Source: Patescibacteria group bacterium
Lineage (GTDB): Bacteria; Patescibacteriota; Doudnabacteria; UBA920; O2-02-FULL-48-8
DNA: 64,000 bases
Assembly (NCBI GenBank): GCA_036278915.1
Contig: DASUKB010000001.1
Span: forward strand, 91,892 to 155,891
Direction of reading: 5' to 3'
Shown here: positions 2,494-16,690 of the stretch, piece after piece
Numbering within the stretch: position 1 is the first letter of the stretch
Layout of the letters: the number at the start of each line of letters is the position of its first letter
Made by a program: the position numbers and the translations under genes
The notes under the pieces: model-generated
Databases searched by the model: none
What the model was told of the DNA's origin: nothing
Seen by the model: only the letters and a program-made list of their open reading frames with translations

Positions 2494-2505
2494 TTCTGGA
2501 GCGCA

Positions 2506-2536
2506 GGCACTTCGTTTGAAACGAGGTGCCTTTTGT
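2506..2536 (+). terminator. Intrinsic terminator, member of GGCACTTCG...CGAGGTGCC hairpin family
   Basis: GGCACTTCG-tttgaaa-CGAGGTGCC plus TTTT. Related copies at 2992-3021 and 4233-4266. Confidence 0.55.
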
Positions 2537-2646
2537 ATTTGCGGCAGTAATTTGGCGAGTTGAGATGTTTTTTTTGAAAGCTTGATTTTTGCAATCGTTA
2601 GTGGCAAAATAGGGCAGATCGGAGTCTGCGTACCCAAGGAGGAGAC

Positions 2647-2976
2647 ATGAGATTGCTTTACTATATTCTTGGCGTGTTCACAATCCCTTGTGCTGTCGTT
2701 GTAATCAACGGGCTTGCACGCCATTTTTTCCGGCGCGAGGACATCAGCGTCGAGGACGCGGTCAGGCTCAATGTGGCCATGAGCCGCCAGATTGAGGATT
2801 TCTTGGCTGACCTTGATATGACTGTAGAGGAATGGAAAGCCACACTCCCGTATTTCGAAGCAGCCGACAGGCTCATACAAGAGACTCTGGATGAGATGCC
2901 TACCCATGTTCGGATGGTTCGGGAAATCATCTCACAGATGGAGGATGGAGAGCTGACTTATCCCACACCCGCATAG
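2647..2976 (+). CDS. Hypothetical membrane-anchored small protein (paralog 2 of a pair)
   Basis: GGAGG SD upstream of the ATG and an N-terminal TM helix. TVEEWKATLPYFEAAD aligns with TESTWREWLPVVEAAD of the 2197 gene. The same GGCACTTCG...CGAGGTGCC terminator follows both genes. Confidence 0.5.
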   Translation: MRLLYYILGVFTIPCAVVVINGLARHFFRREDISVEDAVRLNVAMSRQIEDFLADLDMTVEEWKATLPYFEAADRLIQETLDEMPTHVRMVREIISQMEDGELTYPTPA

Positions 2977-3189
2977 GGCATTCCCGACCAAGGCACTTCG
3001 CGCAAACGAGGTGCCTTTTTGTTTGACGGAGCGCAAGCAAAGTGTATAATTTAAACAAGCGGCACAAGGCCGCTATTTTCTTTTTCATAAAACCCCCCCG
3101 ATTTCGGCAAAGCCGAAATCTGCCCCCTCTTTAATAAAGAGGGGGCGGGTCAGCCCAGGGTCAGCGGGGGAGTTTAGTAGAATTAATCC

Positions 3190-3714
3190 ATGCCAGAAAT
3201 AAATTTGGAATTTAAATCCGGAAAATCTTACCGCAGACTTGCGATTCGCGTCTTCCCCAGCGGCCGGGTGGTGGTCACCAAACCGCGCAGGCTTAGCGTT
3301 TCCCAGGCGCAATTTTTCGTAGACAAAAAGATGCACTGGATCCGCAAAAAACTGGAATTCTACAAATCCGCGCACGTCTACGACTGGAAAGATTATGTGC
3401 CGGATTTGCCCAAATCCCTGGAATTCGTAAAGGGGAGGCTTGCGCACTTCAACCAGCACTACCAATTTGCCTACGGCATGGTGCGGGTAAAAAATCAGAA
3501 ATCCGTGTGGGGCACGTGCTCTGCCCGCAAAAATCTCAACTTCAATGCCAAAATAATTGCCCTGCCGCCAGAGCAGGCGGACTACATCATAGTCCACGAG
3601 CTTTGCCACACTCGCGAACTAAACCATTCGCAGAAATTTTGGGATTTGGTAGCCGAGCAAATCCCAGACTACAAACGCATCAAACAAGAGCTAAAACTAT
3701 ACTCTTTCGACTGA
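3190..3714 (+). CDS. YgjP-like/WLM (DUF45) HExxH metal-dependent hydrolase
   Basis: 174 aa. HELCH motif near the C-terminus (IIVHELCHTRELNHSQKFW) is typical of the YgjP/M48-like zinc hydrolase family. Confidence 0.65.
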   Translation: MPEINLEFKSGKSYRRLAIRVFPSGRVVVTKPRRLSVSQAQFFVDKKMHWIRKKLEFYKSAHVYDWKDYVPDLPKSLEFVKGRLAHFNQHYQFAYGMVRVKNQKSVWGTCSARKNLNFNAKIIALPPEQADYIIVHELCHTRELNHSQKFWDLVAEQIPDYKRIKQELKLYSFD

Positions 3715-3809
3715 TTTTCAGGCAGCCTGTCCGCCGAAGCTCGATAAGTTGGAAGCTTTACGCGAAGGCGGATTCGTGGCAAACTATGCCGGCAAGGAGG
3801 ATTTAGTAT

Positions 3810-4220
3810 ATGGCTACTCCGGAGTGGGATAAGCTGCTTTCTGCAGCCAACAAGGCGAGATTCAACGCCTATGCGCCTTACTCGGAATTTCTGGTGGGCG
3901 CTTCGGTACAGACAGTCGGCGGCGAAATTTTTTCCGGCTGTAACGTGGAGAACGCTTCCTACGGCCTCACCATCTGTGCCGAGCGCACGGCGCTGGTGAA
4001 AATGGTGTCCGAGATTGCCTTTCCGGTACTTGCGGCTGTCTGCGTCGTACTCAAGGGTGGCCACATGAAAGGCGGATCCCCTTGCGGCGCCTGCCGGCAG
4101 TTTATATGGGAGTTCTGCCGAGGCAACGAGGATGTGCCGGTGCTTATGACCGATCCGGATGACACCGGCAGAAGGTACAGCACTATCGGCCAACTGCTCC
4201 CCGAAGCGTTTGTGTTGTAA
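3810..4220 (+). CDS. cdd: Cytidine deaminase
   Basis: CAERTA (H/C-A-E zinc site) and PCGACRQ motifs. 136 aa, typical of homotetrameric Cdd. Confidence 0.85.
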   Translation: MATPEWDKLLSAANKARFNAYAPYSEFLVGASVQTVGGEIFSGCNVENASYGLTICAERTALVKMVSEIAFPVLAAVCVVLKGGHMKGGSPCGACRQFIWEFCRGNEDVPVLMTDPDDTGRRYSTIGQLLPEAFVL

Positions 4221-4801
4221 AACAACCCTAAGGGCACTTCGTCTCAGACGCGGTGCCTCTTTTATTTGGGTCAAAAAAATTTACAATTTATCATTTATAA
4301 TTTCTAATTTCTCATCTTTCGTCTGCACGAGGTACAAAAAAACAGTCCAGGCTTTCGCTGAACTGTTATCATGTTTTCGCAATCCTCGTTTGTTGCGCTG
4401 CGGCCGGGCAGTAGGAGGCCTTATTCACCTCAACAGGTGCTTTTTGTCACGGGACTAGGTAGTCATTCCTCGGTCCCCACGACATCCATCCGATCCACTT
4501 CCCGGATGTTTTGACAAAAATGAGCTCTAGGCGATTTTTCACGCCATACCCTCCAACCCGGCCCCAAGCGCTTTGTTCACAAATATGTTACCTCGAAATC
4601 CCAAACTCCGCAACGAAAGCTTATCAGGTTAATTCCCCACACCCGTATGGGGCGCTAAAAACGAGTTGACAGTGGATGCTTTTAGATGTAGGATCAGGGT
4701 GTTCGAAATCCACAAGGAGATCATAGCTAGGTCACGCAGACCGAGGTTATTCAGGTTCTTCCTGTGAAATCCTTGATGGGTTTCACTAAAAAGGAGGAGT
4801 T

Positions 4802-5044
4802 ATGAGTTACTCTCCGGTCTCAATATGCATCTATTGCATGTTGCGTAGATTTTGGCAGGTGGATCGTCGCGGGCTGAACAAGCTCGAGGCGATGGGCATC
4901 CTCACGGTTGCCACCATTTGTCAAAAGACTCGCCGCGACCTCAGGCAGATACGAGGTGTGGGCAATCTGACGATTGCGGAGGTTGAGCGAATACTCGCCA
5001 TCTTCAACGAGAAGTTGAAAGAAGATCTTCCACTCTTCAGATAA
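4802..5044 (+). CDS. Small helix-hairpin-helix DNA-binding protein (RNAP alpha-CTD-like)
   Basis: 80 aa. The DLRQIRGVGNLTIAEVERIL motif is HhH-like. Strong AAGGAGGAG SD. GC-rich hairpin terminator at 5056-5087. Confidence 0.45.
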   Translation: MSYSPVSICIYCMLRRFWQVDRRGLNKLEAMGILTVATICQKTRRDLRQIRGVGNLTIAEVERILAIFNEKLKEDLPLFR

Positions 5045-5159
5045 CCCTACCCGAAGGCGCTCGCCCTTTGAGCGCCTTTTTCTTTTTGTGTCAAGAGACT
5101 AGGGTCTTGACCTTAGGATTGCTCAGGTCTACGTTTTAGTTGTAATTAACAATAACCAT

Positions 5160-5720
5160 ATGAGTCCCTATAGTCCCCAATATCATAATAGTTCTTGGTT
5201 TGGTGACTGGTGGTGGGTGATAGTCCTTGTGATTGTAGGAATTGCTGCCGCAATATATTTAATTTACACGGAGCTTGGCCGACGACATTCAACACGTTTA
5301 TTTTTGCGGAACCAAAAAGTACCACAAATAATGAAAGACCTCACTCCCTTGTCCTTTGAAATTTGGGTGAGGGGATTATTTATAAATATTGGAGCAGACG
5401 CCATACTTTCCAAACGAGAATCAAAAACCGGTTTTGATCACGGGATTGATTTAGTCGCGCATTACAAAGGTCAGAAAATTTGTATTCAATGCAAGAAATA
5501 TTTCCCGAACAGATTGGTCGATGAAACAATTTTGCGAGATTTATATGGAGCAATGGAGTATGGCAAATACGACAAAGCGGTACTTGTCACCACCAGCAGT
5601 TTTACTCGCCGCGCGCGAGAGTGGGCGGAGAAGGCTGATGATATGATTTTGATAAACGGTGAACTCCTCCAAAAGATGCGAGACAATACAGGAATCCTGA
5701 TAAACCTTTTAAATAAATAA
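5160..5720 (+). CDS. Membrane-anchored Mrr_cat (restriction-endonuclease-like) domain protein
   Basis: N-terminal TM helix (WWWVIVLVIVGIAAAIYLIY). The Mrr_cat pattern follows: LSFEIW..., ...GFDHGIDLVA..., ...ICIQCKKY..., ...VLVTTSSFTRRAREWA. Located in the AT-rich island. Confidence 0.6.
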   Translation: MSPYSPQYHNSSWFGDWWWVIVLVIVGIAAAIYLIYTELGRRHSTRLFLRNQKVPQIMKDLTPLSFEIWVRGLFINIGADAILSKRESKTGFDHGIDLVAHYKGQKICIQCKKYFPNRLVDETILRDLYGAMEYGKYDKAVLVTTSSFTRRAREWAEKADDMILINGELLQKMRDNTGILINLLNK

Positions 5721-5884
5721 CGCCCCACACTCCTATGGGGCGTTAAAATTTGACAAAATGCCCATTTGGCTATAAACTTTAGGAAAGATATAATTTTTTA
5801 GAGCGGCTTTTGCCGCTTTTTTTGTCTTAATTCCATATTGCCCTTGACGTCTTTTTTTGCCTATAGTAATATTTTATTACCTAT

Positions 5885-6211
5885 ATGCAAATAAGTAAAC
5901 TAGTCAAAAATTTAAGAGACCAAAGTGAGTTCACACTCGACGTTCTAGCAAAGAAGACCGGGTTATCTGCAGGTTTTCTATCTAGATTAGAAAAGGGCAA
6001 TTACGATAACAAGAACATACAATTGGAGACAATTATACGCTTGGCGAATGGTTTGGGACAAAAGTTAAAAGATTTTTTGGACAACTTGCAGATTATAGAC
6101 CAGAATGAATTACCTCCTTTGAATCTATACCTGAGAGAAAAGTATAAGATAAAAAAAGATTCAGATATAAAAACTATCGAAGACATAATTAATAAGTTTA
6201 CTGATGAGTAA
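5885..6211 (+). CDS. XRE-family helix-turn-helix transcriptional regulator
   Basis: FTLDVLAKKTGLSAGFLSRLEKGN is a canonical Cro/C1 HTH. Overlaps the next gene by 8 nt. Confidence 0.8.
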   Translation: MQISKLVKNLRDQSEFTLDVLAKKTGLSAGFLSRLEKGNYDNKNIQLETIIRLANGLGQKLKDFLDNLQIIDQNELPPLNLYLREKYKIKKDSDIKTIEDIINKFTDE

Positions 6212-6776
6212 TTCCATAATACAAACTATAAATTCTGATGCAGAAAAAATCGCTGCAGCAATAATAGACTCGATCAATTATGGAGAAAATCCGCCACTTG
6301 GAAAGTTAATTGGTTGGTTAGAAGATAATCTACGCTCTCAGATTGATCTTAAACATATCGATTTGGGTTCTACTCCTGTTTGCGGTCTCACGTATCATGT
6401 TTTTTCAAAAGATATGTATGTGGTCCGTGTTGACAAAACCAATCCATACACAAGACAAAAATTTACGGTTGCTCACGAACTAGGACACATAATAGGAGAC
6501 TTGCAGTTAACAGCTATAGCTGGTTATTTCGACGGCGAATTGGAAAATGTAAAAAGTGGTTTGGAAAGATTTTGCAATAGATTTGCCGCAGCTTATTTAA
6601 TGCCACCAGAAATATTTAAAAGGATTTGGTCCATGTCTGGAGATAAGAATTCAACACAAATAACGAAGATGCTTTATGTTGCTTCAAGATTTGGTGTTTC
6701 CGAAGAGGCGGCCAGGTATAGAGCTATCGAACTTGGATTACTAAATTACAGTAAACGGGACAACGACCGAAATTAG
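6204..6776 (+). CDS. ImmA/IrrE-family metallopeptidase (DUF955)
   Basis: HEXXH in FTVAHELGHIIGD. Classic XRE+ImmA/IrrE pair arrangement. Confidence 0.75.
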   Translation: MSNSIIQTINSDAEKIAAAIIDSINYGENPPLGKLIGWLEDNLRSQIDLKHIDLGSTPVCGLTYHVFSKDMYVVRVDKTNPYTRQKFTVAHELGHIIGDLQLTAIAGYFDGELENVKSGLERFCNRFAAAYLMPPEIFKRIWSMSGDKNSTQITKMLYVASRFGVSEEAARYRAIELGLLNYSKRDNDRN

Positions 6777-6800
6777 CGTTGTAGAAAGGACGAAACAAAA

Positions 6801-7091
6801 ATGATCAGAATTACTTGTATCAACAAAGATAACGGTAATCATGAAAACCCACATTTGGCCATTACCTACTTAGGTTGGATAGAAGACGGTACTAATGCGG
6901 TAGGAAAATGGGCTCGATTACAGTTATATAGATGGATCAAGGAGCAAGGCGGGATTGCGTATGTTATGGATGCTATTAAGAACCGCGTATACGTAAAACC
7001 TGCCGTTTCTGTAATGGGGAATCCTTATGTTCGGACTGAATCCGATGGCAAGGTTACAAATAATTTACTCTCGTTAATTGAGTGTAAATAG
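6801..7091 (+). CDS. DUF3892 domain protein
   Basis: 96 aa. The C-terminal ...VRTESDGKVTNNLLSLIEC matches the conserved DUF3892 signature (T..D....NNLL.LP.C). Confidence 0.55.
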   Translation: MIRITCINKDNGNHENPHLAITYLGWIEDGTNAVGKWARLQLYRWIKEQGGIAYVMDAIKNRVYVKPAVSVMGNPYVRTESDGKVTNNLLSLIECK

Positions 7092-7190
7092 CAAAGACCC
7101 GAATATAATTCGGGTCCATACTCGAATTATATCACAAAAAGCGGCACTAGTGCCGCTTTTTGCTTTTTTGAATTAAAAATGTCAAAATAA

Positions 7191-8042
7191 ATGAAAGATT
7201 TAAATCAACTAGCCTTGAAATTAAAGACCAAAATTGACGCCCAGCCCTTTATAAAGTGGGCTGGCGGTAAAAGACAGCTTTTAGATGAGCTTGAGAAGCA
7301 CAAGCCTAAATGGTTCAATAGATACTTTGAACCATTTGTTGGCGGTGGAGCTTTATATTTTCGGATTCAGCCAGGGCAAAGTTTTCTGTCGGATATAAAT
7401 CCTGAATTAGTAAATCTATATTTAATAATTCAAAGTAAAGTTGATGAATTAATTTCTGAACTCAAAAAATTAAAAGTATCGGAGAAAGAATTTTATAAAA
7501 TAAGAAATATTGACAGAAAACCGGAATATAGAGAATGGAATAACATAAAAAAAGCTGCAAGATTTATATATCTAAATAAAACTTGCTTTAATGGATTGTA
7601 CAGAATGAACTCCAAAGGCCATTTTAATGTTCCTTATGGTAACCAAAACAATCCAAAAATTCTTGACGAATATAATCTCCGGCAAGTAAATAAATTATTG
7701 CAAAATTCTGATATCAAATGTCAATCCTATTCTGGAATAGAAAAAAATGTAAAGAAAGGTGACTTTGTCTACTTTGATCCTCCTTATGCTCCATTAAACA
7801 AATCTTCTTTTACGAAGTACTTTAAAGACGATTTTGATATTAAAATGCAGGTTGATCTACGAGATTTATGCGACCGTTTAGATAAAAAGGGTGTTTATTT
7901 TATGATTTCAAATTCTCATACATCCTTGATTTTTGGATTGTATAAAAACTATGATATCAAGGTAGTTGACGCAATCAGAGCTATCAACTGCAAGGGTTCT
8001 GGTAGAGGAAAAGTGAAGGAAGTCTTAATAACGAATTACTGA
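7191..8042 (+). CDS. Dam-family (D12 class) N6-adenine DNA methyltransferase
   Basis: The N-terminal SAM motif (KWAGGKRQLL, FEPFVGGGALYF) and the catalytic DPPY (VYFDPPYAP) match the alpha-group m6A MTases of the Dam/DpnM/T4Dam family. Confidence 0.85.
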   Translation: MKDLNQLALKLKTKIDAQPFIKWAGGKRQLLDELEKHKPKWFNRYFEPFVGGGALYFRIQPGQSFLSDINPELVNLYLIIQSKVDELISELKKLKVSEKEFYKIRNIDRKPEYREWNNIKKAARFIYLNKTCFNGLYRMNSKGHFNVPYGNQNNPKILDEYNLRQVNKLLQNSDIKCQSYSGIEKNVKKGDFVYFDPPYAPLNKSSFTKYFKDDFDIKMQVDLRDLCDRLDKKGVYFMISNSHTSLIFGLYKNYDIKVVDAIRAINCKGSGRGKVKEVLITNY

Positions 8043-8043
8043 A

Positions 8044-9297
8044 ATGTCCAACCGAGAACTATGGTCAAAGGTGTTTGAAATAAAAAAATTTGATCTAAAT
8101 AAAGATATTCATTTTATTACCGCAAAGGAGATAAAGCAGATCACTGGCCAAGAGCCAAGGAATATGGCTAAGATGGATAGCACTGCAGATCTGCCGTCTA
8201 TTTTCAAAAATAACGGTTATTTTTTATTACCAATTGAAAATGGGAGATATGAAATTATACGAGGTGAGGGATATCATAAATTAGAAAAAAATAAAAAGAC
8301 AGGTGAATATGATGCAGATATTAAATTTTCTATTACGACTGCTGCCAGGGGTGCAAGTGAGATGGAATATTTAGATTACTCAATTTATACAGGAGTGCTT
8401 GAGAAAATTTTGGGTCTAGGTTCCATGTACCCATCCATCCGAGGGCGTGGCCGAAGCCGAAGTTTTAATTTTTTTGTTAACCGTCATCAAGTGGATGTTT
8501 CAGGTGTCCAACTGGAAGTAGATTCAGGTTTAGAAGCGGAGCATGCCATAGTTCTTATTGAAGCCAAAATGGAGACTCCTGAGGATTTTATTGTCCGACA
8601 ACTTTATTATCCATATAGACATTTTGGCTTGATCTCGCCTTATAAAAAAATTGTCCCAACTTTTTTTACTTATGATTTAGGCAATAAAGTTTATAAATAT
8701 TGGGTTTATGATTTTAAAAACGATGTAGATTACAATTCTATATATTTAAAATCCGTCCATGCTTTTAAAATCATAAGTACCGAACCAGTGGAACTAAGCG
8801 AGCTAAAACCTTTGGAAAACACGCAGATCGCTGATATTCCACAGGCCAATGATCTTGATAAAATTATAACTATGGTTTTTGGTGTTAATGAAAAGATTGA
8901 TGATTATAAAAAAATTGCAAAATATTTTGAGTTTAATGAGCGTCAGAGTAGCTACTATAGACAGGCTGCTGAGTCTTTAGGGTTAATCTCTTCTCATAAA
9001 GGTAAGTATTATCTTACCGATAAAGGGCAGAAATTGATTAAATTGTCTACTTCTGAGAGAAATATATTTTTTATTAAGCTCATCTCGGAATACGAGCTTG
9101 TGAAAAGTAGTTTGGATATTCTTCAGCATAAGTCGGTTTTGACCGATGGAGATTTAGTTAAGCTTGTCCGCCAAAACCATAAAATAAGTGGCAGCACTGT
9201 TATCCGACGCGCTCAATCATTGAAATCTTGGTTAAATTGGATCGCTGAGAGGACAAATACGTTTATAAAAGAAGATAACAAATTTATAGTCTCATAA
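8044..9297 (+). CDS. Putative PD-(D/E)xK restriction-endonuclease-like protein with C-terminal winged-helix domain (probable partner of the Dam-family MTase)
   Basis: Start codon 1 nt after the MTase stop (translational coupling). Candidate nuclease motif ...QLEVDSG...AIVLIEAKME (D...ExK). The C-terminal ~130 aa look wHTH-like (YYRQAAESLGLISSHKGKYYLT). No family can be assigned without a search. Confidence 0.4.
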   Translation: MSNRELWSKVFEIKKFDLNKDIHFITAKEIKQITGQEPRNMAKMDSTADLPSIFKNNGYFLLPIENGRYEIIRGEGYHKLEKNKKTGEYDADIKFSITTAARGASEMEYLDYSIYTGVLEKILGLGSMYPSIRGRGRSRSFNFFVNRHQVDVSGVQLEVDSGLEAEHAIVLIEAKMETPEDFIVRQLYYPYRHFGLISPYKKIVPTFFTYDLGNKVYKYWVYDFKNDVDYNSIYLKSVHAFKIISTEPVELSELKPLENTQIADIPQANDLDKIITMVFGVNEKIDDYKKIAKYFEFNERQSSYYRQAAESLGLISSHKGKYYLTDKGQKLIKLSTSERNIFFIKLISEYELVKSSLDILQHKSVLTDGDLVKLVRQNHKISGSTVIRRAQSLKSWLNWIAERTNTFIKEDNKFIVS

Positions 9298-9319
9298 TTT
9301 TATCCAATAATTTAAATCT

Positions 9320-9649
9320 ATGTCCAATTTGATGTATTTGGTTATCGGAATTGTGGTTGGGTATGTGATTGCCAGGGTTCAGCGCAATTTTGCTGCAAGA
9401 AAAGATTCTTCGCCTGCGGCTCAGAATGATAATTCTCTCAATCAACAACGGGCCGTGGAGCATCAGGCACATCTCGATAAAATTCTTGCAAGTTTCAATT
9501 CTGGAGATGAGATTACCAATGACAAAGTCCAGGCGTTGCTTGGGGTTTCTGATACAACTACTGGTAGATATTTGGAAGAACTAGAGAAGCAGGGGAAGCT
9601 GCAACAGATCGGTACTTTGGGGAAATATGTTAAATATCGAAAAATCTAA
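9320..9649 (+). CDS. Small membrane-anchored winged-helix protein
   Basis: N-terminal TM helix (LVIGIVVGYVIARV), then a predicted helical region ending in a wHTH-like segment (ALLGVSDTTTGRYLEELEKQGKLQQIGTLGKYVKY). Confidence 0.4.
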   Translation: MSNLMYLVIGIVVGYVIARVQRNFAARKDSSPAAQNDNSLNQQRAVEHQAHLDKILASFNSGDEITNDKVQALLGVSDTTTGRYLEELEKQGKLQQIGTLGKYVKYRKI

Positions 9650-9787
9650 CGCCCCATACGGGTGTGGAGAGTTAGAAGAAAAAAATCACTGATTTAAATT
9701 ACTTTCATTTTTATTAAATATACAAATTCAATTGATGAAGCAGATTACACCACATCTTTGGTACGATAAGCAGGCAAGAGGAGTATT

Positions 9788-10288
9788 ATGAACATACTAT
9801 ATGATGTAGCGGCGTGGGGGGCATTCTTTATGGCTGTAGCCGGAGCCGGGGCGGCTCTCACCGGACTTGTATTTGTAAGTATCACTTTGAATTTACAAAA
9901 AATCGTGGGGTCCGCCCGGTTGGTGGGGCGCGCAGAAGAAGCAGTGCTGCATTTGCTCTCAACTGTTATACTTTCTCTCGTCTGTCTTATGCCTGGCATA
10001 TCGGCTAAGCTTACCGGCATATTTGTACTCATACTTATAATCCCGACGTGGATTTTCTTAACTGACCTGCACCGCCGGGCTTACGCGGAGCAAAAGCAGG
10101 AAAACATGCGCTCGTTTATGTCGCGGTTCGTGCCAGCGCAGGTGGCGCTGGTGCCGATTATAATTTCTGGCATAAGCCTTATGGCGCATGGCGGCGGCGG
10201 TTTGGGCTGGCTGGCATTTGGACTTATGGCATCGGTGACAGTGGGCGTGGTGGATGCCTGGGTTTTGACTATAGAGATCATAAGATAA
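9788..10288 (+). CDS. Hypothetical polytopic membrane protein
   Basis: 166 aa with about 5 hydrophobic segments. No recognisable family. Confidence 0.4.
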   Translation: MNILYDVAAWGAFFMAVAGAGAALTGLVFVSITLNLQKIVGSARLVGRAEEAVLHLLSTVILSLVCLMPGISAKLTGIFVLILIIPTWIFLTDLHRRAYAEQKQENMRSFMSRFVPAQVALVPIIISGISLMAHGGGGLGWLAFGLMASVTVGVVDAWVLTIEIIR

Positions 10289-10290
10289 GC

Positions 10291-10548
10291 ATGAGCCCGT
10301 TTTTTGTATACATTATCAAGTGCAAAGACGGGACGCTTTATACCGGCATCACTACGGATTTGGACCGAAGGATTGCGGAGCATAATTCGTCCAAGCTTGG
10401 CGCCAAATACACCCGCGCGCGCCGGCCCGTAAAACTGGCTTATTCCCAAAAATTCCTCACTCGCTCTGCTGCCTGCCGGCAAGAAGCGAGAATCAAGCAA
10501 TTTACGCGTGTGGAAAAGCTTGCGCTCATAAAAAAGAAAAGGCGATAA
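10291..10548 (+). CDS. GIY-YIG nuclease superfamily protein (YhbQ/UPF0213-like)
   Basis: FFVYIIKCKDGTLYTGITTDLDRRIAEHN...AKYTRARRPVKLAY is the GIY-YIG core. Confidence 0.75.
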   Translation: MSPFFVYIIKCKDGTLYTGITTDLDRRIAEHNSSKLGAKYTRARRPVKLAYSQKFLTRSAACRQEARIKQFTRVEKLALIKKKRR

Positions 10549-10620
10549 TTAGAAATTTTTATGGTTATTCGTTGACATGCGTGGTGGTTTTGCTAGAATT
10601 CTCTTTGTGAAGGAGGGTTC

Positions 10621-10830
10621 ATGCAACAGGTCCATTATTTCCACAGCCGAAAGCTTATGGAAGCTTTGGAATTTGCGCGCAAGTCCGGATTCCCCGTAAG
10701 GCTGGCTCCGGCGTGCGCGTACGGTGGATGGGTGAAGCTTGCGGACAACGAAGAAGAGTTCAAGACCCTGTTCAAGAAGGCGGCCCGCAGGTCGCCCGGC
10801 AACGAAGTCGAGGTGCAAATCCTCGCATAG
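10621..10830 (+). pseudogene. Isolated ATP-grasp domain fragment (GC-rich, own promoter/SD/terminator)
   Basis: 69 aa. FPVRLAPACAYGGWVKLADNEEEF...NEVEVQ resembles the B-domain of ATP-grasp carboxylases. The rest of the enzyme is absent. Promoter-like TTGACA-16-TAGAAT at ~10572-10600, a GAAGGAGG SD, and a terminator at ~10841-10875. Confidence 0.3.
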
Positions 10831-10949
10831 ACCAATTTCTGGAAGGTGTCCACCGTGGGCGCCTTCCTTTTTATTTGTGGAAATTACAATTGTCAGTGAA
10901 TTATTTTCTTTGTATGATAAACACAAGCAATTAAGCTGAAGGGATATAT

Positions 10950-11252
10950 ATGTATATAGTGCGCGAAGTGTTTACGGCCAAACCGGGCAATGCGTCCAAA
11001 ATGGCCAAACTTATGAAAAAAGCATTTAAAGCCGACGCTAAAGCTCGCGTGATGACCGACATGGTGGGTCCATACAATACCGTGGTGGTGGAGACAGAAG
11101 TCAAAACCCTGGCGGAGTGGGAACAAACAATGCTGGACATGAAGGCGGGCAAGCCGGACCCAAACATGGACGAGGAAGCCATGAAGGAGATGGCCAACTA
11201 CACCGAGATGTATATGAAAGGCCGACGCGAAATTTATCAGATCCTGGAATAA
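10950..11252 (+). CDS. Small dimeric alpha+beta-barrel-like protein (NIPSNAP/ABM-like)
   Basis: 100 aa. The N-terminal MYIVREVFTAKPG motif resembles NIPSNAP/ABM-fold stress proteins. Weak assignment. Confidence 0.3.
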   Translation: MYIVREVFTAKPGNASKMAKLMKKAFKADAKARVMTDMVGPYNTVVVETEVKTLAEWEQTMLDMKAGKPDPNMDEEAMKEMANYTEMYMKGRREIYQILE

Positions 11253-11256
11253 TTTT

Positions 11257-11619
11257 ATGATTGCAGATTTGGGACGATACGCCAGTCTAGGGTTTTGGGT
11301 GATGCAGGCCGTGGTCGGCATAATTTTTATATACCACAGCGGGTTTAAGATAAAACATCCGTCGCAGATTGCCTCGGCTTACGGCGCACCGGCGTTTGTG
11401 GGCTTGGCCCACGGATTGGTGGAATTGGTAGGCGGGGCTTTGCTGGTGGTAAACTTTTACGCGCAGCCTGTGGCGTTTATATTTGGGCTCATCATGCTTG
11501 GGGCCATATACATGAAGATGTTCAAATGGAACGTCGGGTTCTTCGCGCACGACAAAACCGGCTGGGAATTTGACCTCATCCTGCTGGCCTGTTGTGTGGC
11601 CATAGTCACCAGAGTTTGA
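11257..11619 (+). CDS. DoxX-family membrane protein
   Basis: 120 aa. The hydrophobic pattern with GLVELVGGALLV and the terminal MKMFKW is typical of DoxX. Confidence 0.6.
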   Translation: MIADLGRYASLGFWVMQAVVGIIFIYHSGFKIKHPSQIASAYGAPAFVGLAHGLVELVGGALLVVNFYAQPVAFIFGLIMLGAIYMKMFKWNVGFFAHDKTGWEFDLILLACCVAIVTRV

Positions 11620-11660
11620 TTTACAATTGACAAATCATGTTTGCTTGTTAAAATAAATTT

Positions 11661-12245
11661 ATGATTACGTGGTTTAAAGTAATTGTGTTCTTGCATATAA
11701 TTTCTGCTATCATCTGGATCGGCGCGGTGATCGTGTTGGAAATTTTGGAATGGCAAACCGTGCACGCCACCAGGCGCGAGCAGATCGCATCGCAAACTCA
11801 CCGCCAGAATTGGTTTGGCAAGCGCGTGTTTGCTCCGGCATCTATAGCAACCATTGTGACTGGACTTATTGCTGTGGCTATAGGCAATCCGGCCTTTAAA
11901 CAGTTTTGGGTGATAGTGGCTTTGGTGGGCGTGGCTGTGGCTTTGGGACTTGGCGCGGGCGTCATCGGCCGCACCATGGGTAAGATTTCACAGATGCTGG
12001 CGAATCCGGCCACCACAGATGAACAAATTGAACAGCAGTTTCAGTTCCTTAAGCCGTTTACGTTTCTGGATCTGGCGGTGCTCATATATATTTTGTTTGA
12101 TATGGTTATGCGGCCGGCAACTGCAAACACCGGATTCCTGGGTGTGACTGTCGTATACTTTGCGATCGTGCTTGTATCCATCGCTCTTGCCCGCGCAAAA
12201 TCCCACAGACCAAAAATAGAATTTCACGACCAACCGCACACCTAA
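11661..12245 (+). CDS. Hypothetical integral membrane protein (DUF2269-like)
   Basis: 194 aa with 4-5 TM helices. Terminator hairpin at ~12231-12258. Confidence 0.35.
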   Translation: MITWFKVIVFLHIISAIIWIGAVIVLEILEWQTVHATRREQIASQTHRQNWFGKRVFAPASIATIVTGLIAVAIGNPAFKQFWVIVALVGVAVALGLGAGVIGRTMGKISQMLANPATTDEQIEQQFQFLKPFTFLDLAVLIYILFDMVMRPATANTGFLGVTVVYFAIVLVSIALARAKSHRPKIEFHDQPHT

Positions 12246-12321
12246 CGTGCGGTTTTTTTGACACCCTAAGCGCTTTTTATATTTGTTTGCCAAGCCCTAG
12301 CAATGGTATAATTTTATCAGT

Positions 12322-12588
12322 ATGAAGAAGAATACATTAGTTCTAATAGTTCTCATAATTCTGCCGGTTTTTTTGATAAATGTACTTCAAAACCTAAACA
12401 ATAAATATAAATTCGTATTACTAATAGTTTCTATCTTGTCCAGCTTATGGATTGTTATAAGATCAGCAAGATTTACGAATATAAGAGGTAAGATTATTTG
12501 GATGTCTGTAGGGGGAATATTAGCAGCCTTATTGATTCTATATTTTTGGATTGCTTATTCCTGGGTTCACGCTAATTTTATTTTATAA
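12322..12588 (+). CDS. Small 3-TM protein, tandem paralog 1 (type A, C-term WVHANFIL)
   Basis: MKKNTLVLIVLIILPV... Preceded by a TGgTATAAT extended -10 (12305-12312) and TTGCCA (12287-12292). No SD; likely a leaderless or short-leader mRNA. Confidence 0.55.
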   Translation: MKKNTLVLIVLIILPVFLINVLQNLNNKYKFVLLIVSILSSLWIVIRSARFTNIRGKIIWMSVGGILAALLILYFWIAYSWVHANFIL

Positions 12589-12627
12589 TTATTTGCCAAG
12601 CCCTAGCAATGGTATAATTCTATCTGT

Positions 12628-12906
12628 ATGAAGAAGAATACATTAATCCTTTTATTTTTGATCCTTCTGCCAGTGGGTTTGGGTTTTGCCTATGACGCTT
12701 CTGGTATGTATGACCATACTACTGGAACTAAATTTACGCTCTTATCCATAGCGCTACTTTCTAGCATTTATTTATTTTTTAGATCTTTATCATTAGAAAA
12801 AAGTAACGTCAAGAACTTTTGGGTTGCCATTTCATGTATCTTAATTGCTACTTTATTACTTTTCATTATGGCAGGATATTCGTTTACTAGCCTAGAAATT
12901 GGATAA
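12628..12906 (+). CDS. Small 3-TM protein, tandem paralog 2 (type B, C-term SLEIG)
   Basis: Its 60-nt upstream region is nearly identical to that of paralog 1 (TTGCCA 12593-98, TATAAT 12613-18). Body diverged. Confidence 0.55.
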   Translation: MKKNTLILLFLILLPVGLGFAYDASGMYDHTTGTKFTLLSIALLSSIYLFFRSLSLEKSNVKNFWVAISCILIATLLLFIMAGYSFTSLEIG

Positions 12907-12948
12907 ATGTAAATAATTATTTCGCCACCTAGGGTATATTCTATTGGC

Positions 12949-13221
12949 ATGAAGAAGAATATAATCATATTAATATTTCTTGTTGTGCTACCTACTGTAC
13001 TAGAATTGTTGCCGTTAAACCCAACGGATTATAGCAATAGGACCGCATACAGCCTTTTGACTGTGTCGTTGGTATCGAGCATATGGATATTTGTGCGTAC
13101 ATTAGCATATGAAAAATCTTGGACTAAGTACGCATGGGTAACTGTTTCAGTTATATCAATATTATTTTTTGTAACTTGGATATATATTGGCTACTCGCTG
13201 TCCCATATAGAAATAGGATAA
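12949..13221 (+). CDS. Small 3-TM protein, tandem paralog 3 (type B, C-term HIEIG)
   Basis: MKKNIIILIFLVVLPTV... Upstream GGTATATT -10-like box. Confidence 0.5.
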   Translation: MKKNIIILIFLVVLPTVLELLPLNPTDYSNRTAYSLLTVSLVSSIWIFVRTLAYEKSWTKYAWVTVSVISILFFVTWIYIGYSLSHIEIG

Positions 13222-13273
13222 ATTAAAAAAACAAAATAGCCGAAGGACTTTTTCTAAATTGATATCTAATATT

Positions 13274-13546
13274 ATGAAAATGAAAAGGAATATCTTGATT
13301 TTTATCTTTTTGGTAGTTCTGCCACTCGTTTTGGTAAAAATTATACCAAATCTTAGTAACGAATATAGCTTTGTTGCATTATCGATATCCATATTAGCGA
13401 GTATTTGGATAGTAATAAGGTCTATAAAATTACCAAGTTCCAAAATTAGAATTACTTGGATAATTATAGGAGCATTATTGGTAATTGTATTGAGTTTATA
13501 TTTTTGGCTTGCGTATGCTTGGGTCCATGCAGACTATATTTTATAA
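13274..13546 (+). CDS. Small 3-TM protein, tandem paralog 4 (type A, C-term WVHADYIL)
   Basis: The ORF-track start (13259) is a TTG. The ATG at 13274 (MKMKRNILIF...) aligns with the other copies. Confidence 0.5.
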   Translation: MKMKRNILIFIFLVVLPLVLVKIIPNLSNEYSFVALSISILASIWIVIRSIKLPSSKIRITWIIIGALLVIVLSLYFWLAYAWVHADYIL

Positions 13547-13624
13547 AATTTCATTAAATCATAAATAAAATAGCCATAGGGTCGGTTGTTTGACAAGCCC
13601 CAGCAATGGGTATATTTTATCGAT

Positions 13625-13873
13625 ATGAAGAAAAAGTTGATTATATTTCTAAGTTTGGTAGTACTACCCGATTTAATTGGTTATTGGTTTTATAATACAA
13701 GAATTTATACTGTAACTTCATGGGTTTCGATTCTGGCGTCACTGTGGTTGTTAGTTTTAAGTATTAAAGAGAGAAATTGGGTTCATTTTAGTATTTTTCT
13801 TTTAATCTTTGTTGCGGCAGTAATGTATTTCTTAATTGGTATATCGATTAGTCACATAGAAATAGGCGGATAA
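13625..13873 (+). CDS. Small 3-TM protein, tandem paralog 5 (type B, C-term HIEIGG)
   Basis: The ORF-track start at 13586 lies inside the promoter (TTGACA 13589-94, 16-nt spacer, TATATT 13611-16). The ATG at 13625 (MKKKLIIF...) aligns with the family. Terminator ~13896-13925. Confidence 0.5.
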   Translation: MKKKLIIFLSLVVLPDLIGYWFYNTRIYTVTSWVSILASLWLLVLSIKERNWVHFSIFLLIFVAAVMYFLIGISISHIEIGG

Positions 13874-13945
13874 AATACCGAAAACAAAAAACCAAAACAA
13901 AAATAGCCACAGGGGCTATTTTTTTCGTAATTAATTTCTAATTTT

Positions 13946-16690
13946 ATGAAACATACTTTGAAAATATTAATACCAGCAGTTTTTGTATGTTTGTTTTTTG
14001 CCCACACTGCCAACGCGCAAGTCAACTTCCGTATCCATAGCTTCGGCATGATCTTGCAGCCAAATGACGCGCCAGGCCAGTACACCTTTTTGATTAAACA
14101 AAAGATTAATGGCGAGTATGTGGACCTTATAAACAAGCCCTTGGATGTTCACCTTACTGATCTTGTAAGCTTGTTCGCATCTCTTGATAATGAAGATTAC
14201 CTTATTACGATGGATTTGCCGCCCGGTGCGGTGCTGGACAGCGTGGATTGTACGGATTCGAATTCTTTAAGTACGTTCATCCCAATCCCGGGAGGTGTAC
14301 ACGCGCTCCCGCAAGGTACGGGTAATCTTCTTTGTACTTTTACTACTTCAAAAGCTGCGACAAGCAAGACACCTGTTCTAATCGTTCCAGGAGTACTTGG
14401 AACTAATATTAAAAAAGGTGACGATGTCCTATGGCTAAATCCACTTAAGTCAATAGTGGATCCAGCTGATCATTTCATGAATTCTTTGTCTTTCAGCACT
14501 GATTTAAATCCGGTCGATCCCGATGTAACCTTTGGATCTGTCATAGGTAAGGTTGGCGTGGGTAGAATTAGTTATGATTACACTCAAAGTTTACGGCAAG
14601 AGTTGATAGACCAGCATTATACCGAAGGTGTTGATCTGTTTACCTTTCCATATGATTGGCGTTATGGCGTTTCTGGTAAAGATTCAAGTGGAGATTTTGT
14701 AAATCTCAAGGCATTTGAGGGCCAGATGAATTATATTTTGACACAGACCGGTGCGGGCAGGTCAGCTGGTAAGGTGGATGTAATTGCCCATTCAACAGGC
14801 GGTTTAATCGTTAAGTAGTATATTCAAGAACATCCGTCGGATAATCATATAGATAAGGCTGTTTTTGTGGGTACCCCAAACTTAGGCGCACCCAAAGCTT
14901 ACAAAGTTCTTATCGCTGGAGATAACTTTACTATACAGGGATTGAGCGATAGTGAGATGAAATTTTTGGCTCAAAACATGCCAGTAGTTTACGATTTAGC
15001 CGCAGACCAGAATTATTATAATCTGGCGGGTAGTCCAATGACTATCCATTTCGACCCAGCGTTAGGTAAACCAGATACTCAGGATACTCTAACCGAAATG
15101 ACTAACCAGTTAGAAAATAATGATCTAATTAACTCATTGGCGATGTCGGATAGTCAGGTCTTACATGACTCTTTGGATAATTTGGATATTTCTAGCACGA
15201 ATGTGGATACTTACAATATTATTGGTTGCAAAACAGGTACTTTTGGAAGTTTTACAGCAAATTTGGGTATAAATAATGATATAGAATCGTTTGATTTTCC
15301 TAAAATCACGCCTGGTGATGGGACGGTCCCGCTTTTGAGCGCTAAAAGTATAAATGCTTCCGATGATCATACCTTTTATGCGCCGGGGGTTCAGCATAGT
15401 AGTTTACTTTCTGCTGATGGACCAATGCAGGAGATCGTAAATATTGTAAGCGGCAGTAATTTGGATGTCGGCAAGGTTGTATCGCAATCCAGCCTTAATG
15501 ATGACCCTTCTCAATGCCAACTCAAGAAAGGGAAATTTTTGGGAATCTTCAGCCCTGTTTCTATAAGCATTACGGATCAGGAAGGGCAGATTTCGCAAGT
15601 TCTAGATGACGGCAGCATAGAAAATGACATTCCCGGAGCAGATTATGAAGTCTGGGGCGAACATAAGTATATTTATCTTCCCACAGATGCCGGCCAGCAG
15701 TATTCGATTGAACTGACAGGCACAGGAACCGGGACTTTTACTCTCAAGGATGAGGATATTGAAGATAATAATGTTACTGGAACGGAGGTGTTCAGTAATC
15801 TGCCAGTGACGACCAGCCTCAAAGGCCAGGTCGTGTTAGCTGATACCTCTTCGCTTGAATTGGATAACAATGGGGATGGTGTATTTGATCAAACACTCTT
15901 GCCGACTTCGGTTGTAAATGGCGAGCAATCCGACGATATAACTCCTCCCATTACCTCGGCGGATATTTCTGGCATCCAAGGACAGCCAAATTATTTCCGC
16001 AGTAACGTTGCTATCAAATTATCCGCGCAGGATTTTGTGGATCCGGCCAAGCCAAATCAAACCTCCGGCATGCTGAATACGCACTTCAGTTTAGACGGAT
16101 CAGAGATAGAAAATTACCAAGTACCAATTACCGTTTCTTCGGAAGGCGCGCACACAATCCGATTTTTCTCAACGGATCGGGCAGGGAACAATGAGCCCGA
16201 GCAAACAATCAACTTTGTTGTGGACAAAACTGCGCCTGAATTTAGTATCCAATTTGATCCCAGCAGCCAAGATATTAAATTTACGGGCACAGACAATTTG
16301 ACTCCGGCTGAAAATGTAAGCCTCCAGGACAATGATGATCAGATAATAATTAGCGATCAAGCCGGCAACACTTCAGAAATTATCCTGTCGAGCAAGGATC
16401 GCAAGAAAAAAATGACTGCCGAGATTGAAGGACTTTTGTATAACGGCGTGGCGGCGGATTTGAGCAAAAATAAATTTAGTTTCAGCTGGCAGTACGACAA
16501 ACAAGGCCAGCTCAAAAAACTTACGCAAAGCGCGCAGGATAAGAAAAACTTTAGAATTGATGCCACTTTCGACGGGCAGCAAACCCGTTTTCGCGGAAAT
16601 GGCAACCAAGGAAAAATAAACGAGCTGCGGCCTGGACTAGTCTCCCTAAAAATTCGCACGCAGACAGGGGATCTGATGTGGTCGTATTAA
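13946..16690 (+). pseudogene. Secreted LCAT/PGAP1-like alpha/beta-hydrolase (lipase/acyltransferase) with C-terminal beta-rich domains, interrupted by one in-frame TAG (14816-14818)
   Basis: Signal peptide MKHTLKILIPAVFVCLFFAHTANA. PVLIVPGVLGTNIKKGDDVLWLNP (the LCAT-family PVvLvPG motif). Nucleophile elbow AHSTGGLIVK, then TAG, then YIQEHP...KAVFVGTPNLGAPKAYK in the same frame. Later GDGTVPLLSAKS and HSSLLS. The two ORF-track entries (13946..14818, 14867..16690) share one frame. Confidence 0.6.

What the first reader, a model, noticed from the sequence alone, without database searches (positions are those of the whole stretch)
5100..9700. AT-rich defence-type island: membrane Mrr_cat protein, XRE/ImmA/DUF3892 module, Dam-family MTase coupled to a nuclease-like wHTH protein, and a TM-wHTH protein
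By eye the composition drops sharply to AT-rich between the HhH gene terminator (~5090) and ~9700. The island encodes seven genes in order. (1) A TM-anchored Mrr_cat restriction-endonuclease-like protein. (2,3) An XRE HTH regulator overlapping an ImmA/IrrE HEXXH peptidase. (4) A DUF3892 protein. (5) A Dam/D12-class m6A MTase. (6) A 417-aa protein that is translationally coupled to it and carries a plausible PD-(D/E)xK motif plus a C-terminal winged helix. (7) A small TM protein with a wHTH that resembles the tail of (6). This looks like a restriction-modification system of uncertain class embedded with a sensor/regulator module. A C-terminal wH on a nuclease recalls modification-dependent enzymes of the DpnI type, which would be odd beside a Dam-like MTase. 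Alternatively the wH may be a regulatory or specificity domain. The Mrr_cat+TM and XRE/ImmA/DUF3892 association may be a separate abortive-infection-type module.
Basis: partly seen in the sequence, partly recalled or inferred. Interest (0 to 1): 0.65.

Follow-up and report, generated by a model that had tools for sequence, protein, structure and literature searches.

The report
AT-rich island with GATC-type restriction-modification
A 4.6-kb AT-rich, horizontally acquired patch in a Patescibacteria genome carries an ordinary two-gene restriction-modification system (a Dam-like, probably GATC-specific methylase plus an unstudied restriction nuclease family) next to three unrelated small modules, so it is a mosaic defence islet and not a new kind of system.

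Summary
Window 5100-9700 is AT-rich (GC3 0.29-0.40 against 0.56-0.68 in the flanks), and the seven + strand genes have the stated domains.

- **Core.** The core is a classical Type II R-M pair. The MTase (7191-8042) is Dam-family, closest to M.DpnIIA, and keeps six of seven EcoDam GATC-contact residues.
- **Nuclease.** The 417-aa partner (8044-9297) starts one base after the MTase stop. It carries Pfam DUF6996+DUF6997+DUF7226 and matches a PADLOC Type II REase model over its full length. It has an invariant D160...E173-x-K175 motif. The AlphaFold2 model (pLDDT 90.6) has a PD-(D/E)xK core and a tandem winged-helix tail.
- **Pair conservation.** A DNA MTase lies beside the homolog in 70 of 79 genome loci across bacteria and archaea (76 with readable flanks), and in three annotated Firmicutes plasmids. 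This argues against a DpnI-like, methyl-dependent enzyme.
- **Other genes.** None of the other five genes travels with the pair. XRE/ImmA/DUF3892 is a separate, previously noted cleavable-repressor module. The TM-Mrr_cat nuclease is solitary in its relatives. The TM-wHTH protein belongs to a large small-protein family and shows no similarity to the nuclease tail.

Verdict: a mosaic island and a new member of known kinds. GATC specificity and any regulatory coupling are inferred, not shown.

The parts
4630..4657 (+). Hairpin repeat copy a (core CCACACCCGTATGGGGCG), upstream of the HhH gene and followed by a TTGACA -35-like box
   Evidence: promoter-like site 4666-4694
5160..5720 (+). Gene 1: membrane-anchored Mrr_cat (PD-(D/E)xK-type) nuclease, 186 aa, catalytic D93/D97...Q110-x-K112 conserved; solitary module
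   Evidence: Pfam Mrr_cat 2e-22; PADLOC mREase_IV 1e-11; invariant residues; TM helix at 17-35; relatives stand alone
5718..5745 (+). Hairpin repeat copy b, immediately after the gene 1 stop and followed by a TTGACA box; forms an imperfect inverted pair with copy c
   Evidence: (I1: 34 nt, 82% complementary)
5885..6211 (+). Gene 2: XRE-family HTH repressor (CapH/ImmR-like), 108 aa
   Evidence: Pfam HTH_3 2e-7; PADLOC capH 5e-8 and R-M control protein 1e-7
6204..6776 (+). Gene 3: ImmA/IrrE-type Zn metallopeptidase (HELGH), 190 aa, overlaps gene 2 by 8 nt; no GAF domain
   Evidence: Pfam Peptidase_M78 4e-17; PADLOC capP 3e-18, matching profile positions 50-154 of 242 only
6801..7091 (+). Gene 4: DUF3892 protein, 96 aa, subfamily with invariant C6 and C95 and near-invariant H14; likely output of the XRE/ImmA switch
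   Evidence: Pfam 4e-11; alignment; neighbourhoods
7095..7162 (.). Two hairpins between DUF3892 and the MTase: 7095-7117, and a perfect 28-nt palindrome at 7135-7162 followed by a T-run. Terminator-like; could also be an operator.
   Evidence: (I4)
7191..8042 (+). Gene 5: Dam-family (D12, alpha-class) N6-adenine DNA methyltransferase, 283 aa, FxGxG and DPPY motifs intact; predicted GATC
   Evidence: TIGR00571 1e-89; PDB 2dpm M.DpnIIA 3.5e-73; contact residues K22, F133, N134, L136, R138, P148 map to EcoDam K9, Y119, N120, L122, R124, P134
8044..9297 (+). Gene 6: Type II restriction endonuclease, 417 aa. N-terminal small domain (DUF6996, 5-71), PD-(D/E)xK core (DUF6997, 74-241; D160, E173, K175), tandem winged-helix tail (DUF7226, 274-404; conserved ERQSSYYR).
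   Evidence: MTase adjacency
9320..9649 (+). Gene 7: small TM + winged-helix protein, 109 aa, member of a large family with the same architecture; not linked to the R-M pair
9647..9674 (-). Hairpin repeat copy c (exact 18-nt core, inverted), immediately after the gene 7 stop, at the 3' edge of the AT-rich block

Best explanation
The region is a mosaic, horizontally acquired AT-rich islet made of independent modules placed side by side.

(1) The functional core is a classical Type II restriction-modification operon. A Dam-family methyltransferase methylates the adenine of, most probably, GATC on host DNA. The translationally coupled 417-aa enzyme is a PD-(D/E)xK endonuclease that cuts the same site when it is unmethylated. 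Its two flanking DNA-binding parts, a small N-terminal domain and a BrxA/MarR-like tandem winged-helix tail carrying the family's most conserved motif ERQSSYYR, probably read the site. Shown: domain identity, the nuclease fold and motif, and the conserved MTase-nuclease pairing. Inferred: GATC as the site, blocking by methylation, and the tail as the site reader.

(2) XRE + ImmA + DUF3892 is a separate cleavable-repressor switch of the ImmR/ImmA and CapH/CapP kind. The XRE protein would repress its own promoter until the metallopeptidase cleaves it on a stress signal (ssDNA or DNA damage, by analogy), releasing DUF3892 expression. All of this is inferred by homology and gene context.

(3) The membrane-anchored Mrr_cat nuclease and (4) the small TM-wHTH protein are unrelated single genes of unknown role.
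For: Island: GC and GC3 drop.

MTase: TIGR00571 dam 300 bits against a cutoff of 115. The best solved relative is M.DpnIIA at 3.5e-73. Of the seven EcoDam residues that PMC4417163 lists for GATC reading (K9, Y119, N120, L122, R124, P134, Y138), six are kept (K22, F133 as in DpnM, N134, L136, R138, P148) and Y138 becomes Q152.

Pairing: a Dam homolog is adjacent in 65 of 79 genome loci, 62 of them directly upstream on the same strand. Five further loci have a PF01555 MTase in that position, and three more are cut at the contig edge. All three annotated Firmicutes plasmid records inspected show the same pair. Hosts span CPR, Thaumarchaeota, Verrucomicrobia, Chloroflexi, Cyanobacteria, methanogens and Firmicutes, a patchy and mobile distribution typical of R-M.

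Independence of the other genes: there are no XRE, DUF3892 or gene-7 hits, one weak ImmA hit and one weak gene-1 hit in the 79 loci.

XRE/ImmA/DUF3892: in 80 loci of this DUF3892 subfamily, the two genes upstream include XRE HTH in 16, Peptidase_M78 in 9 (12 by tblastn) and LexA in 7-8. Downstream genes are heterogeneous. Lau et al. report the same association and cite Burroughs & Aravind 2020.
Confidence: 0.75

Rival explanations
1. This is one integrated, stress-gated R-M system. XRE/ImmA(/DUF3892) acts as the control unit of the downstream methylase-nuclease operon. Transcription from the XRE promoter reads through the hairpins at 7095-7162, so restriction is boosted when ImmA cleaves XRE, for example on ssDNA or DNA damage during infection. 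The logic would be that of a CapH/CapP-type switch or a C-protein, applied to an R-M system.
For: All six genes from XRE to gene 7 are co-directional. The imperfect inverted hairpin copies b and c bracket exactly this block (5718-5751 and 9641-9674). No sigma70-like + strand site lies between 6190 and 7877, and only about 20 nt separate the T-run from the MTase ATG. The XRE protein also hits the PADLOC R-M 'control protein' model at 1e-7. Close DUF3892 relatives lie directly upstream of a Type I R-M operon with a divergent XRE/M78 pair (L081), next to XRE-M78-Eco47II REase-m5C MTase (L085), and next to a Type IIG enzyme (L083). Lau et al. found CapH/CapP-like pairs on DISARM systems.
Against: In 79 loci holding the same R-M pair, none has XRE or DUF3892 and only one has a weak ImmA hit 2.6 kb away, so the pair works without this control. 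Among 80 DUF3892 loci, the downstream genes are heterogeneous: 70 Pfam families in 121 proteins, and R-M-type families appear only once or twice each. A strong terminator-like palindrome with a T-run separates the units. The promoter scan uses an E. coli-type consensus, which may not apply to Patescibacteria.
Confidence: 0.15
2. The 417-aa protein is a modification-dependent (DpnI-like, Type IIM/IV) or otherwise non-classical nuclease. Its winged helices would read methylated DNA, and the adjacent Dam-like gene would be an orphan or regulatory methylase.
Against: Strict adjacency, mostly with translational coupling, to an MTase in 70 of 79 loci and in three annotated plasmids would be self-destructive for an enzyme that cuts its partner's product. 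Replacement of the Dam-type MTase by a PF01555 MTase in the same slot is typical of protective methylases. PADLOC classes the family as Type II REase, not Type IV. The DpnI match is weak and generic.
Confidence: 0.04
3. The pair is not a defence system. It would be a methyl-directed repair or housekeeping pair, a MutH-like nicking nuclease working with a Dam methylase.
For: MutH and Sau3AI show that GATC-directed PD-(D/E)xK nucleases can serve repair. Dam methylases are often housekeeping enzymes.
Against: The pair sits in an AT-rich acquired patch and on mobilisable or conjugative plasmids beside recombinases. Its distribution across bacteria and archaea is patchy. There is no Pfam MutH/Sau3AI hit. 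MutH is not normally operonic with dam (general knowledge).
Confidence: 0.03

Closest known systems
DpnII / MboI-type GATC Type II R-M systems (M.DpnIIA Dam-like MTase, M.DpnIIB PF01555 MTase, R.DpnII)
   Same: The MTase is most similar to M.DpnIIA (3.5e-73, alignable end to end). The MTase sits next to a PD-(D/E)xK-type REase. In relatives the partner MTase can be either Dam-type or PF01555-type, the same two classes used by DpnII and MboI (general knowledge).
   Different: The nuclease is not a DpnII/MboI-family protein. It has no hit to Pfam DpnII, DpnII-MboI or MutH/Sau3AI at E <= 0.1. It is about 130 aa longer than those enzymes (general knowledge) and has extra N- and C-terminal DNA-binding domains. 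Only one MTase is present here.
PADLOC/REBASE-derived Type II REase model PDLC03513 (= Pfam DUF6996 + DUF6997 + DUF7226 proteins)
   Same: The match is full length (residues 7-403 against profile positions 11-423 of 426, 3e-39). All three Pfam domains are above threshold.
   Different: The score is moderate, so this protein lies in a divergent (CPR) branch. The enzyme name and recognition site behind the model could not be retrieved with these tools. No paper in the library mentions these DUFs, and public annotations are 'hypothetical', 'AAA-associated domain' or 'translation elongation factor'.
CapH/CapP (CBASS), ImmR/ImmA (ICEBs1) and DdrO/IrrE cleavable-repressor switches
   Same: An XRE HTH gene overlaps an HExxH Peptidase_M78 gene (PADLOC capH 5e-8, capP 3e-18). 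Lau et al. already noted the association with DUF3892, citing Burroughs & Aravind 2020. I reproduced it in 12 of 80 loci.
   Different: The peptidase is 190 aa and matches only the peptidase part of CapP (profile 50-154 of 242), so the GAF domain of CapP and IrrE is absent and the size is closer to ImmA. The genes are co-directional with DUF3892, whereas 11 of 12 relatives, like the CapH/CapP operons, are divergent. No CBASS genes are present. Cleavage and its signal are untested.
Mrr / Type IV restriction nucleases (Mrr_cat)
   Same: The Mrr_cat domain is present with the D...QxK catalytic residues conserved. It hits PADLOC mREase_IV models.
   Different: It has no N-terminal DNA- or modification-reading domain. 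An N-terminal transmembrane helix takes that place, so the protein is only 186 aa. Its function is unknown.
BrxA (BREX DNA-binding protein, PDB 7zge)
   Different: Sequence identity is 8%, it is fused to a nuclease, and no BREX genes are nearby. This is a fold resemblance only.

Membership tests
Type II restriction-modification system (classical, methylation-blocked) | A DNA methyltransferase with intact SAM-binding and catalytic motifs | tested here: met
   MethyltransfD12 1e-62 and TIGR00571 1e-89. EPFVGGGA and DPPY are visible in the alignment to 2dpm.
Type II restriction-modification system (classical, methylation-blocked) | A separate endonuclease with a nuclease fold and catalytic residues | tested here: met
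Type II restriction-modification system (classical, methylation-blocked) | MTase and REase genes are linked and the linkage is conserved across genomes | tested here: met
   65 of 79 loci have an adjacent Dam-type MTase and 5 more a PF01555 MTase; 3 loci are cut at the contig edge. The three annotated plasmid records inspected show the same pair.
Type II restriction-modification system (classical, methylation-blocked) | The REase cleaves at or near the site that the MTase protects, and methylation blocks cleavage | not testable with these tools
   This needs enzyme assays or in vivo restriction tests.
GATC-specific Dam-family methyltransferases | Conservation of the residues that read the GATC bases in EcoDam (K9, Y119, N120, L122, R124, P134, Y138) | tested here: met
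   Six of seven are kept: K22, F133 (aromatic, as in DpnM), N134, L136, R138 and P148. Y138 becomes Q152. The first base pair is the least strictly read in EcoDam.
GATC-specific Dam-family methyltransferases | m6A at GATC in genomic DNA | not testable with these tools
   No methylome data are available. GATC avoidance was inconclusive: observed/expected 0.97 in the window and 0.77 in pooled loci.
DpnII/MboI or Sau3AI/MutH REase families | Sequence membership (Pfam DpnII, DpnII-MboI, MutH) | tested here: not met
   None of these families hit at E <= 0.1. Only DUF6996, DUF6997 and DUF7226 plus weak wHTH models matched.
DpnI-like modification-dependent REases | No cognate MTase in the same cell; the enzyme cuts methylated sites | tested here: not met
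   A cognate-type MTase is the conserved neighbour. Cleavage preference itself is untested.
CapH/CapP regulators of defence operons | An XRE HTH repressor paired with an HExxH M78 peptidase | tested here: met
   The genes overlap by 8 nt, and the HELGH motif is in the sequence.
CapH/CapP regulators of defence operons | CapP three-domain architecture (peptidase + HTH-like linker + C-terminal GAF) | tested here: not met
   The protein is 190 aa and only positions 50-154 of the 242-position capP profile match. The architecture is defined.
CapH/CapP regulators of defence operons | Regulators are divergent from, and upstream of, the regulated operon; ssDNA-stimulated cleavage of the repressor | tested here: inconclusive
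   The genes are co-directional here, while 11 of 12 related DUF3892 loci are divergent. Cleavage is not testable with these tools.
Mrr-type Type IV restriction enzymes | Mrr_cat catalytic domain plus an N-terminal modified-DNA-binding domain | tested here: not met
   The catalytic domain and motif are present. The N-terminus is a single TM helix and no DNA-binding domain is present.

The most novel reading that the evidence does not exclude
The DUF6996-DUF6997-DUF7226 proteins would be a widespread but experimentally unstudied family of GATC restriction enzymes (more than 1000 members in bacteria and archaea). They would read their site with a BrxA-like tandem winged-helix module, a new structural class of Type II enzyme. 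In this locus, their expression would additionally be gated by an ImmA/XRE cleavable-repressor switch through read-through, giving a damage- or infection-inducible R-M system.
Probability: 0.15. Interest if true: 0.5.

Novelty: new member of a known kind. Interest (0 to 1): 0.3.

Why it matters
For genome annotation, the result gives a concrete and testable label to a large family that public records call 'hypothetical', 'AAA-associated domain' or even 'translation elongation factor'. The label is: Type II restriction endonuclease, partner of a Dam-like methylase, probably GATC. It also documents horizontally acquired defence genes in a Patescibacteria genome. The island adds one more case of the XRE/ImmA/DUF3892 module, whose output protein is still of unknown function and which I also find beside LexA. 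None of this changes current concepts. An R-M system beside other small defence-type genes in an AT-rich patch is what specialists expect.

Tried and rejected
- **GATC avoidance as a test of the recognition site.** The window gives observed/expected 0.97. Pooled over 59 related loci it is 0.77, but GGCC, CTAG and GTAC are equally low. The test is not decisive.
- **Sequence search of the PDB with the nuclease.** No hit at E <= 1.
- **Literature search for DUF6996, DUF6997 and DUF7226.** No papers. A search on Patescibacteria, R-M, Dam and GATC returned nothing specific.
- **AFDB fold search to find a named UniProt relative.** The library was not available.
- **Phage origin.** No tblastn hit in 50,697 phage records and no PHROG family for the nuclease.
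- **Hypothesis that XRE/ImmA/DUF3892 is a dedicated R-M control cassette.** Four look-ups suggested it. The census of 80 loci showed heterogeneous downstream genes, so I kept it only as a minority rival.
- **Gene 7 as a duplicate of the nuclease tail.** Rejected.
- **Island borders.** No tRNA gene or integrase lies at the edges. The only integrase-like gene is beyond rpsO and pnp, about 6 kb upstream. Rfam gave no meaningful match in 2500-14500.
- **The hairpin repeat in related DNA.** It was not found in any of the other 168 loci fetched by then.


Full report
**1. The observation.** The composition drop is real. Sliding 500-nt windows fall from about 0.47-0.56 GC to 0.30-0.41 between roughly 5000 and 9750, then return to 0.52. 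Third-codon-position GC is 0.29-0.40 for all seven genes of the block. It is 0.56-0.68 for the genes on both sides: YgjP-like, cytidine deaminase and HhH upstream; TM166, GIY-YIG, DoxX and DUF2269 downstream. In the whole 64 kb, only this block and a second patch at 12-14 kb have 1-kb GC below 0.40. The seven + strand ORFs are at the stated coordinates. Hydropathy supports the two TM helices. The window comes from a Patescibacteria MAG. The chromosomal context is rpsO-pnp upstream and DoxX downstream, with no tRNA gene or integrase at the edges.

**2. The methylase-nuclease pair.** The MTase scores 300 bits on TIGR00571 'dam' against a cutoff of 115. Its best solved relative is M.DpnIIA at 3.5e-73, followed by E. 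coli Dam at 1e-44. I mapped the EcoDam residues that read GATC onto the HMMER alignment. PMC4417163 gives their roles: R124 reads the fourth base pair, L122 and P134 the third, Y119 intercalates, N120 contacts the orphaned base, and K9 and Y138 read the first pair. The window protein has R138, L136, P148, F133 (as in DpnM), N134 and K22. Only Y138 differs (Q152). GATC is therefore the most likely target, but this is an inference.

The 417-aa protein starts one base after the MTase stop. It carries Pfam DUF6996 (5-71), DUF6997 (74-241) and DUF7226 (274-404). It matches PADLOC's 'Type II restriction enzyme' model PDLC03513 from residue 7 to 403 at 3e-39. It has more than 1000 relatives, none with a functional name, and no relative in the PDB by sequence. 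In an alignment of 36 members, D160 and E173-A-K175 are invariant. So is a block in the tail, R300-Q-S-x-Y-Y-R306, part of the motif ERQSSYYR.

**3. Is it an R-M system?** I fetched 79 genome loci encoding relatives of the nuclease (28-58% identity). They come from CPR bacteria, Thaumarchaeota, Bathyarchaeota, methanogens, Verrucomicrobia, Chloroflexi, Cyanobacteria, Firmicutes and others. tblastn with all island proteins found a Dam homolog next to the nuclease gene in 65 loci. In 62 it lies directly upstream on the same strand, and in three cyanobacterial loci it is convergent downstream.

Of the 14 remaining loci, five carry a PF01555 (beta-class) N6/N4 MTase in the equivalent position. In three the match starts within about 150 nt of the contig end, so the upstream side cannot be seen. 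Six are unresolved. Relatives at 27-30% identity are found on 22 plasmid records. In the three annotated Firmicutes records I inspected (Leuconostoc, Enterococcus and Staphylococcus), each homolog lies beside a 'DNA adenine methylase' and near recombinase genes. The homologs themselves are annotated 'hypothetical', 'AAA-associated domain-containing' or 'translation elongation factor'.

This patchy, mobile, strictly MTase-linked distribution, with exchange of the MTase class, is the signature of a classical Type II R-M pair. It makes a DpnI-like methyl-dependent enzyme very unlikely. The nuclease is not a DpnII/MboI or Sau3AI/MutH family member. It is absent from phage records and from PHROGs. 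GATC avoidance could not confirm the site: observed/expected is 0.97 in the window, as might be expected after a recent acquisition, and 0.77 in pooled loci, no lower than other commonly avoided palindromes.

**4. The other genes.** None of genes 1, 2, 3, 4 or 7 accompanies the R-M pair elsewhere. There is one weak ImmA hit and one weak Mrr hit in 79 loci.

- **DUF3892.** Its subfamily has invariant C6 and C95 and near-invariant H14. Look-ups of four relatives showed XRE + M78 pairs and, notably, other R-M systems nearby: Type I in L081, Eco47II-type in L085 and Type IIG in L083. A census of 80 metagenome loci tempered this. Among the two genes upstream, 16 are XRE HTH proteins, 9 are Peptidase_M78 and 7-8 are LexA (S24 + LexA_DNA_bind). 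The two downstream genes fall into 70 different Pfam families, none seen more than three times. By tblastn, 12 of 80 loci have an ImmA homolog upstream, 11 of them divergent. None has a gene-1 or gene-6 homolog.
- **What that means.** The recurrent partner of DUF3892 is a cleavable repressor, either XRE/ImmA or LexA, and not an R-M system. Lau et al. already list DUF3892 operons among those associated with CapH/CapP-like regulators, citing Burroughs & Aravind 2020. [quoted passage not shown] The window's peptidase is ImmA-sized and lacks the CapP/IrrE GAF domain. Here the three genes are co-directional.
- **Gene 1.** It keeps the Mrr_cat catalytic D...QxK motif. Its closest relative on a long contig lies downstream of pnp in another genome, beside PadR, with none of the other island genes. 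A more distant relative follows parB.
- **Gene 7.** It belongs to a large family of roughly 100-aa TM + wHTH proteins, with 1356 cluster representatives at E <= 0.001. It shows no similarity to the nuclease tail.

**5. Local architecture.** A 28-nt hairpin element with core CCACACCCGTATGGGGCG occurs only near the island. Copies lie at 4637 (+), 5725 (+, two mismatches) and 9650 (-, exact), with a weak copy at 2963. There are none in the other roughly 54 kb, against an expectation of 0.02. Copies a and b each precede a TTGACA box. Copies b and c form an imperfect inverted pair that brackets genes 2-7. They could be junction scars, REP-like elements or operators, and I could not decide which. 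The element is absent from every other locus fetched by that point.

Between DUF3892 and the MTase lie two hairpins, including a perfect 28-nt palindrome with a T-run ending about 20 nt before the MTase ATG. No sigma70-like + strand site was found between 6190 and 7877. This leaves open that, in this locus, R-M transcription depends on read-through from the XRE unit. I keep that as the main rival (0.15), because conservation argues that the R-M pair does not need it.

**6. Verdict.** The block is a mosaic AT-rich acquired islet. Its core is a new member of a known kind. It is a Type II R-M system with a Dam-family, probably GATC-specific MTase. Its PD-(D/E)xK REase belongs to a family that REBASE-derived models already list but that has no structure, no literature in the searched library and poor public annotation. 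The flanking XRE/ImmA/DUF3892 module is a previously noted association of unknown output function. The TM-Mrr_cat and TM-wHTH genes are unrelated singletons. Interest is modest (0.3). The most useful follow-ups are a REBASE look-up, a methylome and a simple dam+/dam- cloning test.

Noticed in passing
window 4630-4657 (+), 5718-5745 (+), 9647-9674 (-), weak copy 2963-2980 (+): A local hairpin repeat (core CCACACCCGTATGGGGCG) is found only around the island (4 matches against 0.02 expected). Two copies sit just upstream of TTGACA boxes. Copies b and c form an imperfect inverted pair that brackets genes 2-7. It could be an insertion scar, a REP-like element or an operator.
   Followed up: partly
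window 12322-13873: A second AT-rich patch (GC about 0.30) holds five tandem paralogous genes for roughly 90-aa proteins with about three hydrophobic segments each (starts at 12322, 12628, 12949, 13259 and 13586).
   Followed up: no
L086-L165 (DUF3892 loci), e.g. L086:1399-2079: In 7-8 of 80 loci, the same DUF3892 subfamily sits directly downstream of a LexA gene (S24 + LexA_DNA_bind) in place of XRE/ImmA. This suggests DUF3892 is a DNA-damage-induced gene under two alternative cleavable repressors. ThiF (5), DUF6527 (4) and metallo-beta-lactamase (3) neighbours also recur.
   Followed up: partly
L021:7996-12367: In a Thaumarchaeota MAG, the nuclease homolog lies between a family-B DNA polymerase gene and a Cas1 gene, a casposon-like context. 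No adjacent MTase was detected there.
   Followed up: no
L081:3536-9173: The closest DUF3892 relative (68% identity, groundwater contig) lies in the order divergent XRE/M78, DUF2188, DUF3892, HsdR, HsdM. The module there is directly upstream of a Type I R-M operon.
   Followed up: partly
L172:3471-4778 (CP118826.1), also NZ_CP120149.1 and NZ_CP046365.1: Plasmid homologs of the restriction nuclease in staphylococci and relatives are annotated 'translation elongation factor', and in Leuconostoc 'AAA-associated domain-containing protein'. These are likely misannotations of a Type II REase.
   Followed up: partly
whole window: TGCA (observed/expected 0.73) and TCGA (0.74) are the most under-represented 4-bp palindromes in the 64 kb, while GATC is not depleted (0.97). 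This may reflect other or older R-M pressures in this lineage.
   Followed up: no
window 10291-10548: A small stand-alone GIY-YIG protein (85 aa, Pfam 2e-17) lies just downstream of the island in normal-GC DNA. Homologs appear near several CPR loci (L009, L017, L112).
   Followed up: no
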